NCBI RefSeq assembly: GCF_016026235.1
Contig: NZ_CP065613.1
Length of the DNA: 64,000 bases
Origin: Escherichia coli
Lineage (GTDB): Bacteria > Pseudomonadota > Gammaproteobacteria > Enterobacterales > Enterobacteriaceae
Strand: one strand, 5' to 3'
The notes under the pieces were generated by a model, which saw only the letters and a program-made list of their open reading frames with translations, was not told the DNA's origin and made no database searches. Shown piece by piece: positions 3,426 to 18,257 of the stretch (its first letter is position 1; each line of letters begins with the position of its first letter). A program made the position numbers and the translations under genes.

Positions 3426-6838
<3,413 letters not shown>

Positions 6839-8888: not shown

Positions 8889-9217
8889 CAGTTCACCACC
8901 TGTTCAAAATCGGCCGTTACAGTCACCCATAACGCCCCCACGCTTGCCGACCATTTACGACAAACCACCCTGATCGGTTTCCAGTCATAAGGTGGCGTCC
9001 ACTGAAATGCGCGGACGCCACCGTGCCGTTCCAGAAAGGCTTTTAAAGATGGGTGTTCACATTTACGAACACGTATCGTCACGCTGTAAATCGACAACTG
9101 GTTATTCAGTCCCGCCGCACGACGCTGTTCATAACCATCGCCCAGCTTCACTGTCACCACTTTCGGCTCTGATACCACATTCATATCCGGGCGCACTTTC
9201 CAGTGAAACGTCTCCAT
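8888..9217 (-). CDS. M: Minor tail protein M
   Basis: 109 aa, same length and position as lambda gpM. Confidence 0.85.
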   Translation of the reverse strand: METFHWKVRPDMNVVSEPKVVTVKLGDGYEQRRAAGLNNQLSIYSVTIRVRKCEHPSLKAFLERHGGVRAFQWTPPYDWKPIRVVCRKWSASVGALWVTVTADFEQVVN

Positions 9218-12200
9218 TACCGATATGCTCCACTTAACCGACCACCATCACGGGCCTGCTGTTGCATAAAGTCCGCTGCCGCTTTTTTCCCAAGGTCATA
9301 AACCACCTTCAGGGCAGCCGGACCTATCTGCCCGTTCGTGCCATCGTTATTGATCTCGATGTTGTACTGCGGGGCAAACATCGCCATACCTGAACCACCA
9401 ATATCCGCCACAACCCCCAGCTTACCGTCAGCACCACGACGCAGTGGCAGAATGGCTTCAGGTCCAGCTTCCCCCATCACACCCGCGCCTTTTGCAAAAG
9501 CAAAAAACGTCGGACGGTTAACCACCGTGCCACTGTAACGACTCAAATCAGCAGACTGATAAATCCCCCCATTGGCATTCAGGGAAAGGCTGCTGAGATC
9601 AAATCCCAGTACACTGCCAATCCCTTTTATCGATTTCATCATGGTTGCCTGCGCCAGGATTTTCGCCATATCTGACAGCACCGAAGAGGTGAAGGATTTG
9701 AAGTTGAGTTTGCCGGTAGTGACAAAAGTTGCCAGGCCATTTCCCATGTTGCTGAAGGCTGATGAGAACACCTGTTCTGCTGTTCCTGCCGTATTGTCTG
9801 CATCCACGGTAAAATCCTGAAATGCACGCAGGACTCCGTTTTTCCAGTTACCCTGCACAACTTCAAGCTGTTGCCAGTAACGGCGATTCTCATTCAGTTG
9901 TCGGTTCAGGCTCTCCGTCAGCGCCTGCTCGGCCTTTCTGTAGTCATCCGTGTTATATGTCCCTTTCTGCTCACTATCCCGCCTCAACTGCTCCAGCTGT
10001 TGCTGGTATTTCTGGCGAAGACTCAGTTGTACCTGATATCGCTGCCGCTGCTGATCACCCATACCCACCGTGGCGATATCCAGGTCATGTTGCTGACGCT
10101 GAGCGCGCTCTTCTTCAGCCAGTTGACTGGTCAGCTGAATTGTTTTTTTCTTCAGATCGTTGAGTGCCGTTTGTTTCTGAAGCTCCTGCTGTTTTACATC
10201 CAGCAGCGTCAGTGCCTGAATCAGCTCATTCTTACGGGCCAGCACACTCTTTTCATCTGCCGTCAGCTTTTTCCCGTCCAGGTCGCTGATGCGCTGCTGC
10301 AGGGCCAGAAGCTGTTTATGCGCTTCAGTCATCCTTTCAGTGGCAATGCCTGCTGACTGTCTTGCAGCAGCAATCTGTCCTTCCACCTGTGCCTGTTGCT
10401 GACTGTACTGCAGCAATAACCGGGTGGCCTCATCATTACGGGTTTCGCGTGTTTTTTTCTTACCGGATGCCAGGGCTTTCTCGTAACGTTCATTTTCACG
10501 TTGTATCGCCGCATCCCTGACAGCCTGGTCGGCGTACTGCATGGCATTAATACGCGCAATTTCACGCTGATGTCGTGCTGCTTCCGTTTCATTCATCCGG
10601 TTCAGTGCAGCATTTTCAGCATTACGTCGTTTCTGTTGCTCCTGATAATTCCGCTCTGCCTGCTCTTTTGCATCCTGCAAATCCTTCTGGCGTTTTTTCT
10701 CCTGAAGATCGTTAAGACGCTGCTGATCGTATTCAACCTGAGAAGATGATGCCGTCCAGGGGAGTCTTTTCGCCCGCGACACTTTCTCCTGTAAAGCGGT
10801 AATCTGTTCATCCAGCGAGTCTTCACGACCAATATTCATGGCCGCATCCCAGAAACGACTCCACAAATCAGACAGATACTTCAGCGTACTGCCAAGCGCA
10901 TTGAGGTTATTATCAATATCCGCAGTACGCCGACCGGTTTCCTCTGCCAGTGCAGACATGGCTATCCGTGCAGCATCACTGGACCGTCCCTGATCCCCAA
11001 GGACACGTATCTGCTCAAGCTGAGTGGCAGTAAGAAAATGCAGCTCATTGTCCAGAGCCTTCGCGGCATTTACAGGATCATCCTTCAGCCGCTTAAACTG
11101 ATTTATGGTATCGCTGACCGACTGGCCAACCGATCGCTCCATCTGTGCGGCAGCTCTCGCCACCATACCGATATCGTTTCCACGAAATGCACCACTCCCC
11201 ACCACCTGCGCCAACGCACCGGCTGCAGCATGTTGCGTGATACCATTCCCGGAAATAGCACGACTGAGCGTCCACAGCTGCCCGGCAGTGACTCCGGCAT
11301 AATGCCCCGTCAGCGACAACTGGCGGTTAAATTCTTCCCCCTCCTTCTGACCGTCATACCAGGCTTTACCCAGACCATAGACGGCCGCGGCAATACCGCC
11401 AATAACCCCGCCAAGCATCATGCCTTTCGGTGACATCAGTGCGCCTGTCCATCCGGCACGGTTAGCCAGCGTTATCCCGGATCCCCTCAGCGCCCCTAAA
11501 TTGCCGCGGGCCAGTTCACCTATCAGAACGCCTATCTCCTGGCGGGCTGCTGCACTTTTCAGACCCAGCGAATGCGTGGCTTTTCCTGCCTGCTCCATTT
11601 TGCGGATATACACTTCTGCAGCACTGCTTACCCCCAGCTGGGCTGCCCTGGCGCGAAGCAACTCAGAAGATGAAAGATTCTGGCGGGTTGCCTGCTCTTT
11701 AAGCTGACGGATAAACGCCACTTTCTGTCGGGTAGCCTCTTCCTCAGCCTGTGTAAGAACACGGGTTTTCGCAGTAACCTCAGAAATCAGCGCCAGATAA
11801 TCCTGCTGACCAATCCCGCCACTGTTTCTGGCCTGTCGGATCTGCTGCTGAATACGCTGTAATTCCTGCAGCCCCGCACTGGCCTGTTTCACACTGTCAA
11901 TCTGACGATAAAACGCAGCAGCCGCTTTATCCTGAGCCTCCGCCAGAGCCATGGCCTGCGCCTGTTCCTCGCGCATTTTCTGGCTCAGCGCCTCCATGCG
12001 CTGGCGGGTTTTCTCCACCTCGCGGGCCATGCGTTCATGAGCCTGTGCGTTCTTCTCCACCGTCTGCGCATGGACGGATGCGGCTGTTGCAGCCGAAGAA
12101 GCCGCCTGCGTTGTCTGCCGGGCGGCCTGAGTCTGACGCTCCATAAAACGCTGCATACGGGCAGAAGACCGTTCTGCATCGCTGGCTGCACCATTCAGAA

Positions 12201-12312
12201 GGTTTTTGATACGGGGAATTTCATTTTTAAACTCTGCCGCATCAATCCCCAAATCAATGACCAGGTTGGCTATCTGGTCCATAACGCACACCTCCGGAAA
12301 TACCTTCCCCAA
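9217..12312 (-). CDS. H: Tail tape measure protein H (start possibly at 12282)
   Basis: About 1030 aa, coiled-coil-rich, Gly-rich C-terminal part ending NNDGTNGQIGPAALKVVYDLGKKAA... similar to lambda gpH. Confidence 0.9.
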   Translation of the reverse strand: MGKVFPEVCVMDQIANLVIDLGIDAAEFKNEIPRIKNLLNGAASDAERSSARMQRFMERQTQAARQTTQAASSAATAASVHAQTVEKNAQAHERMAREVEKTRQRMEALSQKMREEQAQAMALAEAQDKAAAAFYRQIDSVKQASAGLQELQRIQQQIRQARNSGGIGQQDYLALISEVTAKTRVLTQAEEEATRQKVAFIRQLKEQATRQNLSSSELLRARAAQLGVSSAAEVYIRKMEQAGKATHSLGLKSAAARQEIGVLIGELARGNLGALRGSGITLANRAGWTGALMSPKGMMLGGVIGGIAAAVYGLGKAWYDGQKEGEEFNRQLSLTGHYAGVTAGQLWTLSRAISGNGITQHAAAGALAQVVGSGAFRGNDIGMVARAAAQMERSVGQSVSDTINQFKRLKDDPVNAAKALDNELHFLTATQLEQIRVLGDQGRSSDAARIAMSALAEETGRRTADIDNNLNALGSTLKYLSDLWSRFWDAAMNIGREDSLDEQITALQEKVSRAKRLPWTASSSQVEYDQQRLNDLQEKKRQKDLQDAKEQAERNYQEQQKRRNAENAALNRMNETEAARHQREIARINAMQYADQAVRDAAIQRENERYEKALASGKKKTRETRNDEATRLLLQYSQQQAQVEGQIAAARQSAGIATERMTEAHKQLLALQQRISDLDGKKLTADEKSVLARKNELIQALTLLDVKQQELQKQTALNDLKKKTIQLTSQLAEEERAQRQQHDLDIATVGMGDQQRQRYQVQLSLRQKYQQQLEQLRRDSEQKGTYNTDDYRKAEQALTESLNRQLNENRRYWQQLEVVQGNWKNGVLRAFQDFTVDADNTAGTAEQVFSSAFSNMGNGLATFVTTGKLNFKSFTSSVLSDMAKILAQATMMKSIKGIGSVLGFDLSSLSLNANGGIYQSADLSRYSGTVVNRPTFFAFAKGAGVMGEAGPEAILPLRRGADGKLGVVADIGGSGMAMFAPQYNIEINNDGTNGQIGPAALKVVYDLGKKAAADFMQQQARDGGRLSGAYR

Positions 12313-12978
12313 GATGCATCAGTTCTTCGTCCGTTCGCTCCGGTATCCCGTTCTCTTCCGGTAAAAGGCTGAAATCAGCCACCGCAGCATCACTGCTGCC
12401 GGACACCATTCTCACGATCAATGCCTTCAGCGAGGCAAACTGCGCATCCATCCACACATCACTGAAGCTCTGCATCCGGAAATAATCGCCCCACTCACCA
12501 AGCTCAGTGGCCGACATTTCCGACAGCATCCGCCGCCAGTCTGCCCGCCTGAACTCCCGGGCAAGCCGCATGACAAACTGCATTTCCCGCGTCAGGACTT
12601 TTCCGGCGTCAGCACCTCATGCTCCAAATCCCCGGCATTCTCAATGGCTCCCATACCGCTCAGCGACAGAACCATCTCCGCCCCCGCTCCCAGGGCATCA
12701 TACGACCATGTTGTAATAACGGATGCGCAAAGCGTCTCAACATCCTGAGACTGTTCCGCATTCCACAGTGAGCGGGAAACCAGCCAGGCATTGATATCCA
12801 TCCCCATCCGTAGAAAAGCAATCTGTCGTTCAGCCTCCGGCAGTTCTCCCTCTTCGGCATCAAACTTTGCCGTTCGCTGCTGAACAAACGCCAGATATTC
12901 AATTCTCTGCAGCCCGGACAGCTCACTGAGCACCACGGACTGCTTTTCATAATTAAACGTGCCCTGTTTCAGAAACAT
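12254..12978 (-). CDS. Tail assembly chaperone G-T, expected to be made by -1 frameshifting near the G stop
   Basis: The -1 frame is open across the G stop (…AGKVLTREMQFVMRLAREF…) and continues as ORF 12254..12583. Confidence 0.6.
12592..12978 (-). CDS. G: Tail assembly chaperone G
   Basis: Starts MFLKQGTFNYEK like lambda gpG (MFLK...); lies immediately upstream of H. Confidence 0.8.
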   Translation of the reverse strand: MFLKQGTFNYEKQSVVLSELSGLQRIEYLAFVQQRTAKFDAEEGELPEAERQIAFLRMGMDINAWLVSRSLWNAEQSQDVETLCASVITTWSYDALGAGAEMVLSLSGMGAIENAGDLEHEVLTPEKS

Positions 12979-13037
12979 CATGTTCTCCGGATGCAAAAAG
13001 CCCCGGATAACCGGGGCAAATGATGAGTATCGTCCTG

Positions 13038-13669
13038 TTAACCTGCGGCGCTGACAGCCACCGTAGCCACTGCCACAAAATCGCCGTCAGAAGTCATGCC
13101 CACAATGCTGACACTGCCCTGCTTCACGCCTTTCACCGTGGCAGTCTGTGGATCTGTCGAATGCACACTGATCGCTTTGTCACTGGCTCCGTCAGGTTTT
13201 ACTGTAAAGGTCAGCGTGGTGGTTGCTCCCGCTTTGACACTGGCAGATGCCGGTGCCATCGTCAGCCCGGTAACGCCCACGATTTCAGTGCCTTCCTCTG
13301 CCAGATACGGAAAACATCAACAGTACCGTTGGGATATTTGATACGAAAAGCGCAGACTTCACCGGAGTCGAACAACTGAACCAGTTTTTTCTGCCCGCTG
13401 TCCCCCGGACGCCAGGCCAGCGTCGCCGAAGTATCACCGACTGATTTCTGCCCCTGGGTTGTCGTTTTCCAGTCTGCATCTTCATCATCGAGATAAGTGT
13501 CATCTTCTGCATCAGCGGTCATTTCGCCAGGTTGCAGATCCTTCACCATCGCAAGACGCAGCCAGTCAGTGTCCGATAAAGGGTTCGCAAACGCATCGCC
13601 CTTGCCGGTATACATCCAGAACGTCGTTCCCGCACCTTTCGTTTTTGCCAGTGGATTTGGTGTGGTCAT
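13038..13669 (-). CDS. V: Major tail protein V, split into two overlapping frames (13262..13669 and 13038..13280)
   Basis: N-terminal part [20 protein letters not shown]...NGTVDVFR resembles lambda gpV; the Ig-like C-terminal domain ([24 protein letters not shown]...) is in another frame. Confidence 0.8.
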
Positions 13670-17057: not shown

Positions 17058-17100
17058 TGAGGTGTACTGGCAATAGCGGACACTACCATTTGTTCTTTTT

Positions 17101-17919
17101 TTAAGCAGCCATCTGATGATATTTTTCCCTGAAGGCTGCCGGGGAGATATTCCCCAGACGAGAGTGACGACGCTGACGATTGTAGAAAATCTCAATGTAT
17201 TCCCGTATTACTGAGATGGCTTCATCCCGGTTATTAAAACGATAGTGGCTCAGGCTCTCATTTTTCAGCGTTCCCCAGAAGCTTTCCATCGGAGCGTTGT
17301 CGTAACAGTTACCTTTACGCGACATTGATGTTTTCAGACCAAACTGCTCCTGTATGACCCGGTAATCGTATGCGCAGTACTGTGAACCTCGATCAGAGTG
17401 GTGGATTAGCCCGGCAGGTGGGCGCTGGCTCCTGAGCGCCATAAACAGGGCTTTACCTGTCAGCTCTTTTGTCATGCGCTCTCCCATGGCGTAGCCGACA
17501 ATTTCGCACGTATAAACATCTTTGATGCCAGCGAGGTACAACCATCCCTCCTGTGTGGCAACATACGTCAGGTCCGCCACCCAGACCTGATTTGGTGCTG
17601 TAGGAGCGAACGTCTGGTTCAGCAGATTTGGCGCAACTGGCAGATTGTGGTTCGGGTTCGTAGTCGCTCTGAACTTGCGTTTCTGCTTACAGCGTAGCCT
17701 TAGCTCCTTACGAAGACGTGCCAGTCGGTCACGACCAACGATGATGCCATTCTCTGCCAGCTCCGTCTGGAGCCGCCGGGTTCCATATGTTTCGCGAGTG
17801 CGGATATGTGCCACCTTAATCTCCAGTTTTAGCCGCTCATCACTTTGTTTTCTGTCTGAGGGTTCATGCTGTACCCAGTTGTAATAACCGCTCCTGGATA
17901 CACCAAATACCTGACACAT
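17101..17919 (-). CDS. IS3-family transposase OrfB (DDE integrase-like catalytic domain)
   Basis: 272 aa with HSDRGSQY and later E; the -1 frame joins orfA to orfB through an A7 run (about 17995-18005). Confidence 0.9.
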   Translation of the reverse strand: MCQVFGVSRSGYYNWVQHEPSDRKQSDERLKLEIKVAHIRTRETYGTRRLQTELAENGIIVGRDRLARLRKELRLRCKQKRKFRATTNPNHNLPVAPNLLNQTFAPTAPNQVWVADLTYVATQEGWLYLAGIKDVYTCEIVGYAMGERMTKELTGKALFMALRSQRPPAGLIHHSDRGSQYCAYDYRVIQEQFGLKTSMSRKGNCYDNAPMESFWGTLKNESLSHYRFNNRDEAISVIREYIEIFYNRQRRHSRLGNISPAAFREKYHQMAA

Positions 17920-17954
17920 CGCTTCAATGGGAAATTGTTGTCGCCATTGTTCGA

Positions 17955-18257
17955 TTAACGCGTATTTTTCAGCGACTCCTGTGCAAAATACGCTGTTGCT
18001 TTTTTTAATATATCTCGCTCAAGGCGAGCTTCATTTAACGCCTTACGCAGTTGCAGAATTTCAGATTCCAGTTCAGCCACCGTGCGGGAGCCAGGAGTAC
18101 CGAGCCCTTTTCTGGCGGCGGTAACCCATTGTCCTAAAGTGCCTTCAGGAAGGGATAATCGGGAAGCGCCTTCACTGATCGAAAGTTGATTTTCAAGAAC
18201 CGTTCTGACAGCTTCGGCTTTGAACTCTTTAGAGTAACGTTGGGTTTTTCTGCTCAT
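17955..18257 (-). CDS. IS3-family transposase OrfA (helix-turn-helix)
   Basis: 100 aa, MSRKTQRYSKEFKAEAVRTV..., typical IS3-family OrfA. Confidence 0.9.
   Translation of the reverse strand: MSRKTQRYSKEFKAEAVRTVLENQLSISEGASRLSLPEGTLGQWVTAARKGLGTPGSRTVAELESEILQLRKALNEARLERDILKKATAYFAQESLKNTR

What the first reader, a model, noticed from the sequence alone, without database searches (positions are those of the whole stretch)
12254..12996. G/G-T tail chaperone pair with a non-canonical slip region
The -1 frame is open across the G stop and joins the T-like ORF, consistent with the conserved programmed -1 frameshift. However, the sequence at the junction on the coding strand is CCGGAAAAG, not the lambda heptamer GGGAAAG, so the exact slip site is unclear.
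Basis: partly seen in the sequence, partly recalled or inferred. Interest (0 to 1): 0.3.

Follow-up and report, generated by a model that had tools for sequence, protein, structure and literature searches.

The report
Ordinary phage G/GT frameshift site
This is the usual pair of lambda-type phage tail-assembly chaperone genes (G and G-T), joined by a programmed backward ribosome slip on GGAAAAG, a variant slip site already annotated in phage N15 and conserved across this gene family; here it sits in a decayed prophage.

Summary
On the minus strand, a lambda-G homologue (12978..12592) is followed by a lambda-T homologue in the -1 frame (to 12254). They lie between a V-like major tail gene and the tape-measure gene. 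The -1 frame is open for only 22 nt before the G stop, and that stretch holds one slip-prone motif, G_GAA_AAG (12604..12598).

The slip site need not stay "unclear". Lambda (G_GGA_AAG), Stx phages (A_AAA_AAG) and N15, HK225, mEp213, Gifsy-2 and the cdtI/mEp460/Ayreon group (G_GAA_AAG) all carry their heptamer at the same invariant Lys codon. The T-frame protein aligns without gaps from that codon onward in all of them. The N15 GenBank record labels GGAAAAG as the slippery sequence.

- GAA AAG was present in 50 of 52 distinct junctions, all those with Glu at the P-site codon.
- The Lys codon AAG was kept in 20 of 20 lineages, against 36% AAG elsewhere in these genes.
- No start codon for T is conserved.
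- No downstream RNA structure is conserved.

Frameshifting itself was not measured. This copy sits in a prophage remnant: V carries deletions, J is split, and the head genes are replaced by IS600. Already known; low interest.

The parts
12592..12978 (-). G gene (tail assembly chaperone, 128 aa; alternative ATG at 12981 gives 129 aa); stop TGA at 12594..12592
   Evidence: PF06894 1.8e-39; TIGR01674 equivalog, 188 bits; phrog_42 1e-51; homologues all start MFLK
12598..12604 (-). Proposed -1 slip heptamer G_GAA_AAG (Glu-Lys codons 12603..12598, preceded by the G of CCG)
   Evidence: It is the only A_AAG or heptamer-like motif in the 22-nt overlap. It sits at the same Lys codon as lambda G_GGA_AAG and N15's annotated GGAAAAG. 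It is invariant in relatives.
12595..12616 (-). The stretch where a -1 shift must occur: -1 frame open (after TGA 12619..12617) while the 0 frame is still open
12254..12598 (-). T-frame part of the GT fusion (114 codons from re-read base 12598; stop TGA 12256..12254). Predicted GT is 241 aa from ATG 12978.
   Evidence: PF06223 3.9e-15; TIGR01715, 134 bits; phrog_39 6e-43, and phrog_32165 (290-position profile) matches G at profile positions 1-119 and T at 145-252; ungapped T-frame homology starts right after the Lys codon
12254..12583 (-). T as a free-standing ORF from ATG 12583, as annotated in public records; probably not an independent gene
   Evidence: Annotated separately in AR435 (PGAP) and mEp460; Ayreon annotates only a shorter T fragment. 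The ATG is not conserved: the first Met in the T frame varies (positions 1, 2, 5, 9, 15, 23 or none).
12613..12618 (-). GAGGTG, a 6-nt Shine-Dalgarno-like string 8 nt 5' of the heptamer; a possible weak stimulator, not conserved
   Evidence: Read from sequence. It is GAGGCG in mEp460 and most IMG/VR relatives, and absent in N15, lambda and several other lineages.
13000..13017 (-). Rho-independent terminator-like hairpin between V and G
   Evidence: annotated as a terminator in the Ayreon, mEp460 and N15 records
9217..12282 (-). Tape measure gene (H-like, 1021 aa), overlapping the end of T by 29 nt
   Evidence: PF06791, PF09718 and PF24622; same layout in AR435
13041..13669 (-). V-like major tail gene, broken by deletions of 85 bp and 27 bp
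   Evidence: PF16461 N-terminal part and the Big_2 domain lie in different frames; deletions relative to AR435, Ayreon and mEp460

Best explanation
This is a lambda-type tail assembly chaperone pair.

Proposed mechanism (inferred, not measured):
- Ribosomes start at ATG 12978 and mostly finish at TGA 12594..12592, giving G.
- A small fraction slips back one base at G_GAA_AAG (12604..12598), with tRNA-Glu on GAA in the P site and tRNA-Lys on AAG in the A site.
- tRNA-Lys re-pairs perfectly with AAA. tRNA-Glu re-pairs with GGA, with a G:U pair at the middle position.
- Translation continues as ...Pro-Glu-Lys-Val-Leu-Thr-Arg-Glu-Met... to TGA 12256..12254, giving a 241-aa GT fusion.

By analogy with lambda, the G part binds the tape measure protein and the T part recruits the major tail protein. 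A low GT:G ratio is set by the slip frequency.

What is shown and what is inferred:
- Shown here: homology, gene order, frame relations, and position and conservation of the motif.
- Inferred: that the slip happens, its frequency, and the two-tRNA versus one-tRNA details.

In this window the genes are intact but lie in a prophage remnant, so the product probably has no role.
For: - G and T family matches are far above the curated cut-offs.
- Gene order V, G, T, H is as in lambda.
- The overlap where a shift can occur is only 22 nt and contains one slip-prone motif.
- At the same invariant Lys codon, lambda, Turner and PhiR5_1 have G_GGA_AAG and Stx phages have A_AAA_AAG. N15, HK225, mEp213, Eeyore, Gifsy-2, Ayreon and mEp460 have G_GAA_AAG.
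- The N15 record annotates GGAAAAG as the slippery sequence, and the Gifsy-2 record calls T part of a frameshift hybrid.
- In 52 distinct junctions, the T-frame sequence aligns without gaps from the codon after Lys, while the 0-frame tail after Lys is 0, 1 or 5 residues.
- Synonymous choices are fixed at the site. AAG is kept in 20 of 20 lineages against 36% elsewhere in G+T. GAA is kept in 17 of 17 against 54%. The preceding codon ends in G in 16 of 17.
- The predicted fusion is 100% identical to that of phage phi458 and 96-98% identical to mEp460 and others.
- A_AA.G is the most shift-prone tetramer in E. coli (PMC4066793).
- The roles of lambda G and GT and their 30:1 ratio are given in PMC5009743.
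Against: - No experiment on this heptamer in a phage context was found.
- In a reconstituted E. coli system, G GAA AAG was used as the "less slippery" sequence because of the second-position mismatch for tRNA-Glu (PMC6924986).
- A_AA.G alone was barely above background without a stimulator (PMC4066793).
- No conserved downstream structure was found. The consensus fold is -2.66 kcal/mol, and the window's z-scores are -0.6 to -1.8.
- One related lineage has A or C at heptamer position 1, so P-site re-pairing is not strictly required.
- All close relatives are annotated with G and T as separate genes.
Confidence: 0.85

Rival explanations
1. The slip occurs at the same site but involves only tRNA-Lys. 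Either tRNA-Lys slips alone in the A site on the A_AAG tetramer, or it slips in the P site while the next codon (TCC, or a stop in some relatives) awaits decoding. tRNA-Glu re-pairing on GGA would contribute nothing. The protein product is identical.
For: - One lineage has GCA or GCC GAA AAG TAA, with A or C at position 1 and a stop directly after AAG.
- A_AA.G is the best tetramer in E. coli.
- tRNA-Glu on GGA has a second-position mismatch.
Against: - Position 1 is G in 16 of 17 GAA lineages, across three different preceding codons (CCG, CTG, GCG) whose usage elsewhere is 33-53%.
- The tetramer alone is barely shifty without a stimulator, and no stimulator is conserved.
Confidence: 0.25
2. 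T is an independent gene translated from its own ATG at 12583, as public annotation shows, and no GT fusion is made.
For: - An ATG exists 8 nt after the G stop.
- PGAP and the mEp460 record annotate a 109-aa T.
Against: - The ATG is not conserved. Relatives have Leu, Ile or His there, and their first Met lies at varying positions or is absent.
- Conserved T-frame coding sequence runs upstream of the ATG right to the slip codon, including in lambda.
- Only a poor Shine-Dalgarno string (GGGA, 2 nt before the ATG) is present.
- In lambda it is the frameshift product GT, with its T domain, that acts in tail assembly (PMC5009743).
Confidence: 0.05
3. Nothing is made in this copy. The G/T genes are silent relics of a dead prophage, and the intact slip site reflects recent descent only.
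For: - V carries 85-bp and 27-bp deletions.
- J is split.
- Head genes upstream of the capsid gene are replaced by IS600.
- None of 5,426 complete E. coli genomes shares the V deletions.
Against: This concerns activity in this copy, not what the element is. G, T and the junction are 100% identical at protein level to phage phi458.
Confidence: 0.6
4. The fusion arises by transcriptional slippage on the A run, or by a shift elsewhere in the overlap.
For: A run of four A residues lies inside the heptamer.
Against: - Four A residues are far shorter than the runs reported for transcriptional slippage (more than 7 A, PMC3711429).
- The other codons of the 22-nt overlap (GTG CTG ACG CCG, TCC) offer no repeat that allows re-pairing, and they vary among relatives while the heptamer does not.
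Confidence: 0.03

Closest known systems
Bacteriophage lambda G / G-T tail assembly chaperones (programmed -1 frameshift at G_GGA_AAG)
   Same: - Same two protein families, at about 36% identity over the fusion.
- Same gene order V-G-T-H.
- T is in the -1 frame, and the slip occurs at the same invariant Lys codon AAG.
- T-frame homology begins immediately after that Lys.
   Different: - The P-site codon is GAA (Glu) instead of GGA (Gly), so the heptamer is not X_XXY_YYZ.
- The G stop follows one codon after the heptamer instead of five.
- G is 12 residues shorter.
Phage N15 genes 14/15 (GenBank AF064539), and HK225, mEp213, Eeyore
   Same: Identical heptamer GGAAAAG at the same position. In N15 it is annotated as 'slippery sequence for -1 translational frameshift'.
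   Different: - Only about 36% protein identity.
- The preceding codon is GCG rather than CCG.
- The 0-frame tail after Lys is five residues (PSPVS) rather than one.
Gifsy-2 (Salmonella) STM1039/STM1041.1n and the phage cdtI / mEp460 / Ayreon / phi458 group
   Same: - The junction is the same: ACG CCG GAA AAG TCC TGA.
- Gifsy-2 has 54% identity and is annotated as a G+G' frameshift hybrid.
- The cdtI/mEp460 group is 96-100% identical to the window.
   Different: Those are complete phages or prophages. The window copy is embedded in a remnant with a broken V gene and no head-gene module upstream.
E. coli dnaX and IS3-family -1 frameshift signals (A_AAA_AAG plus upstream Shine-Dalgarno string and downstream hairpin or pseudoknot)
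   Same: Same A-site event (tRNA-Lys AAG to AAA). The window has a GAGGTG string 8 nt upstream, at about the right distance for the dnaX-type effect.
   Different: - No conserved downstream structure.
- The SD-like string is not conserved even among close relatives.
- P-site re-pairing is only near-cognate.

Membership tests
Lambda-type G/GT tail assembly chaperone pair | Upstream ORF is a gpG homologue | tested here: met
   PF06894 1.8e-39; TIGR01674 equivalog, 188.2 bits against cut-off 74.45
Lambda-type G/GT tail assembly chaperone pair | Downstream ORF is a gpT homologue | tested here: met
   PF06223 3.9e-15; TIGR01715 equivalog, 134.1 bits against cut-off 77.35
Lambda-type G/GT tail assembly chaperone pair | Located between the major tail protein gene and the tape measure gene | tested here: met
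   V-like PF16461 upstream, and tape measure PF06791/PF09718 downstream; same order in AR435, Ayreon, mEp460 and lambda
Lambda-type G/GT tail assembly chaperone pair | T is in the -1 frame relative to G, and that frame is open across the G stop | tested here: met
   the -1 frame is open from 22 nt before the G stop and runs 112 codons beyond it
Lambda-type G/GT tail assembly chaperone pair | A conserved slip-prone sequence lies in the overlap, at the family's conserved Lys codon | tested here: met
   G_GAA_AAG at 12604..12598. The Lys is invariant. The heptamer is conserved in 44 of 52 distinct junctions, with GGGAAAG, AAAAAAG, AGAAAAG and CGAAAAG in the others. Synonymous sites are fixed.
Lambda-type G/GT tail assembly chaperone pair | T has no translation start of its own | tested here: met
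   The position of the first Met in the T frame varies or is absent among relatives, and homology extends upstream to the slip codon. The window does have an ATG at 12583, with a poor SD.
Lambda-type G/GT tail assembly chaperone pair | A GT fusion protein is actually produced at a low ratio to G | not testable with these tools
   Needs a reporter assay or protein analysis. The lambda precedent is cited from PMC5009743.
Canonical X_XXY_YYZ heptamer sites | Positions 1-3 identical and positions 4-6 identical | tested here: not met
   GGA AAA G: positions 1-3 are G, G, A. Only the A_AAG tetramer part is canonical. The definition is taken from PMC4066793.
dnaX / IS3-type stimulated -1 frameshift signal | Conserved downstream hairpin or pseudoknot 5-9 nt after the heptamer | tested here: not met
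   The consensus fold of 14 diverse junctions is -2.66 kcal/mol with no helix near the heptamer. The single-sequence z-score is -0.62. There is no Rfam match.
dnaX / IS3-type stimulated -1 frameshift signal | Conserved upstream Shine-Dalgarno-like sequence | tested here: inconclusive
   GAGGTG lies 8 nt upstream in the window, but it is GAGGCG in most close relatives. SD-like strings occur in only about half of the lineages, within an acidic GAG/GAA-rich tail.

The most novel reading that the evidence does not exclude
A large branch of the lambda G/T family has settled on G_GAA_AAG. This heptamer has a second-position P-site mismatch, and biochemists have used it as a poorly slippery control. 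In that branch no RNA structure is conserved, and the 0-frame stop lies 0-1 codons downstream in part of it. The branch may therefore reach the required GT:G ratio through an undescribed helper. Candidates are pausing caused by the conserved nascent ...T-P-E-K peptide, or by the nearby stop codon. Alternatively it may tolerate a much lower ratio than lambda.
Probability: 0.12. Interest if true: 0.35.

Novelty: already known. Interest (0 to 1): 0.08.

Why it matters
There is little biological news here. The G/GT frameshift is a textbook case, and the GGAAAAG variant has been annotated in N15 for decades.

The practical value is for annotation.
- The same junction occurs in prophages of about a third of complete E. 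coli genomes (1,846 of 5,426). In every close relative whose annotation was examined, T is a stand-alone gene.
- Searches restricted to canonical X_XXY_YYZ heptamers, such as the one in PMC4066793, would miss this site.

It also supplies a natural in vivo context for a heptamer that has been treated in vitro as weakly slippery (PMC6924986).

Tried and rejected
- Downstream stimulatory structure. Single-sequence folds gave z = -1.78 when the heptamer was included and -0.62 for the downstream 75 nt. Folds of 20 relatives showed a recurrent hairpin only about 30 nt or more downstream, inside the conserved LAREF...DWR coding region. The RNAalifold consensus of 14 diverse junctions was -2.66 kcal/mol. 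I rejected this as a conserved stimulator.
- Rfam scan of 12100..13100 at E <= 10: only noise.
- Upstream SD-like GAGGTG: not conserved, left as inconclusive.
- Literature on GGAAAAG as a phage slip site. Searches returned only the EF-G study that uses it as a weak site. The PRFect supplement had no entry. Xu, Hendrix and Duda 2004 is not held, so their table of slip sites could not be checked.
- A sequencing or assembly indel at the junction. The 1-nt length difference to relatives lies in the terminator T-run at 13000, not at the junction. Rejected.
- Solved structures by sequence: none.
- The large protein-database searches were not used, because the answer did not depend on them.

Full report
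**What is in the sequence**

All features below are on the minus strand.
- The likely G start is ATG 12978. It is preceded by GGAG, every homologue begins MFLK, and PGAP uses that start.
- The 0 frame ends ...GAG GTG CTG ACG CCG GAA AAG TCC TGA.
- The -1 frame has a TGA at 12619..12617 and is then open through the G stop into the T ORF.
- A -1 shift must therefore occur within 22 nt (12616..12595). The only slip-prone motif there is G_GAA_AAG at 12604..12598.
- GGAAAAG alone is common in the window: 14 copies against 9.1 expected. The case rests on phase, position and conservation, not on the string itself.

**Identity of the genes**
- The upstream protein is a lambda gpG homologue: PF06894, 1.8e-39; TIGR01674, 188 bits against a cut-off of 74.
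- The downstream protein is a gpT homologue: PF06223, 3.9e-15; TIGR01715, 134 bits against a cut-off of 77.
- One PHROG profile of 290 positions matches G at its positions 1-119 and T at 145-252.
- The pair lies between a V-like major tail gene and a 1021-aa tape-measure gene, which overlaps the end of T.
- A terminator-like hairpin sits between V and G at 13017..13000. The Ayreon, mEp460 and N15 records annotate a terminator at the same place.

**Relatives**
- The 851-bp region is 97-99.5% identical to phages phi458, Ayreon, cdtI, Tritos and mEp460, and to prophages in 1,846 of 5,426 complete E. coli genomes.
- The predicted fusion protein is 100% identical to that of phi458.
- The junction is identical in AR435, Ayreon and mEp460. 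The 1-nt length difference to these relatives lies in the terminator T-run at 13000, not at the junction.
- In the close relatives whose annotation was examined, G and T are separate genes.

**Locating the slip site by comparison**

I extracted the G-stop overlap from 14 annotated phage or prophage loci and 80 IMG/VR loci with 37-100% identity to G.

| Heptamer at the invariant Lys codon | Phages |
|---|---|
| G_GGA_AAG | lambda, Turner, PhiR5_1, PhiR12_1 |
| A_AAA_AAG | Stx phages |
| G_GAA_AAG | N15, HK225, mEp213, Eeyore, Gifsy-2, cdtI/mEp460 group |

- All three heptamers sit at the same invariant Lys codon.
- The N15 GenBank record marks GGAAAAG (L006:1002-1008) as "slippery sequence for -1 translational frameshift". 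The Gifsy-2 record describes T as part of a frameshift hybrid.
- Among 52 distinct junction sequences, 44 have GGAAAAG, 4 GGGAAAG, 2 AAAAAAG, and 1 each AGAAAAG and CGAAAAG.
- Translating the T frame from the base after the slip gives an ungapped alignment across all of them. For example, lambda reads K|VFDGELSFALKLAREMGRPDWRAML and the window reads K|VLTREMQFVMRLAREFRRADWRRML.
- By contrast, the 0-frame tail after Lys is 0, 1 or 5 residues.
- The first Met in the T frame falls at varying positions or is missing. This argues against independent initiation of T.

Synonymous choices at the site are fixed:

| Position | At the slip site | Elsewhere in G+T |
|---|---|---|
| Lys codon AAG | 20 of 20 representative lineages | 36% AAG |
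| Glu codon GAA | 17 of 17 | 54% GAA |
| Preceding codon ends in G | 16 of 17 (CCG, CTG or GCG) | 33-53% use of those codons |

The lineages are related, so these are not independent trials. Flanking third positions do vary among them.

**Mechanism**

The conserved core is A_AAG. tRNA-Lys on AAG re-pairs perfectly with AAA after a -1 move, and A_AA.G is the most shift-prone tetramer in E. coli (PMC4066793).

The P-site tRNA-Glu would re-pair from GAA to GGA with a mismatch at the middle position. That is why a reconstituted-system study used G GAA AAG as its "less slippery" sequence beside G GGA AAG (PMC6924986).

The near-universal G at position 1 suggests this partial P-site re-pairing still matters. 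One lineage has A or C there, with a stop directly after AAG, so it is not indispensable.

I found no conserved stimulatory structure:
- The window's downstream 75 nt fold with z = -0.62.
- The consensus fold of 14 diverse junctions is -2.66 kcal/mol.
- Rfam gives nothing.

A GAGGTG string 8 nt upstream (12618..12613) could act as a dnaX-like Shine-Dalgarno stimulator. It is GAGGCG in most close relatives and absent in many lineages, so I leave it as inconclusive.

The roles of the products are taken from lambda: G and the G part of GT bind the tape measure, T binds the major tail protein, and the G:GT ratio is about 30:1 (PMC5009743). Whether and how often the slip occurs here was not measured and cannot be measured with these tools.

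**Context of this copy**

The surrounding prophage is a remnant.
- V carries deletions of 85 bp (near 13308) and 27 bp (near 13143) relative to AR435, Ayreon and mEp460. This puts its Ig-like domain out of frame.
- None of 5,426 complete E. coli genomes shares these deletions.
- The J region differs in length, and its ORF is split into 948 aa and 171 aa, against 1165 aa in AR435.
- Colinearity with the AR435 prophage stops at 17060, inside the protease-capsid gene. An IS600 follows at 17101..18257, then excisionase- and integrase-like sequence.

**Verdict**

The "non-canonical" slip region is the heptamer seen most often in this sample of the G/T family, and it is already annotated as a slip site in N15. 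It is already known and of low interest. Its modest value is for annotation, since T is listed as a separate gene in the relatives examined. It also offers a natural example of a heptamer with near-cognate P-site re-pairing.

Noticed in passing
window 13041..13669 (- strand); deletions near 13308 and 13143: The V-like major tail gene is broken. It has an 85-bp and a 27-bp deletion relative to AR435, Ayreon and mEp460, which leaves the N-terminal tube domain and the C-terminal Big_2 (Ig-like) domain in different frames. None of 5,426 complete E. coli genomes has these deletions.
   Followed up: partly
window 17101..18257 (- strand): An IS600 (IS3 family) orfA/orfB pair sits where the 5' part of the ClpP-protease/capsid fusion gene and the portal and terminase genes would be. 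Colinearity with the AR435 prophage ends at 17060. orfA contains TTAAAAAAAGC near 18000, the element's own likely A_AAA_AAG frameshift site. IS600 suggests a Shigella-like or O121-like host.
   Followed up: partly
window 3426..6835 (- strand), especially 4101..4338: The J (tail tip) gene appears split into ORFs of 948 aa and 171 aa, against 1165 aa in AR435. The alignment breaks here, with 237 nt in the window against 323 nt in AR435.
   Followed up: no
window 13000..13017 (- strand): A strong GC-rich hairpin followed by a T-run lies between V and G. It is annotated as a rho-independent terminator in the Ayreon, mEp460 and N15 records. It presumably lowers expression of G, T and H relative to V. 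Its T-run is one base shorter than in relatives.
   Followed up: partly
L085, L088-L092, L094 (IMG/VR loci), G/T junction: A related lineage has GCA or GCC GAA AAG TAA. Heptamer position 1 is A or C, and the G stop follows the slip codon directly. This suggests slippage of tRNA-Lys alone, possibly helped by the stop codon.
   Followed up: no
window 12989..12991 (- strand): Three adjacent substitutions (TCC against GGT in relatives) lie just upstream of the G ribosome-binding site GGAG.
   Followed up: no
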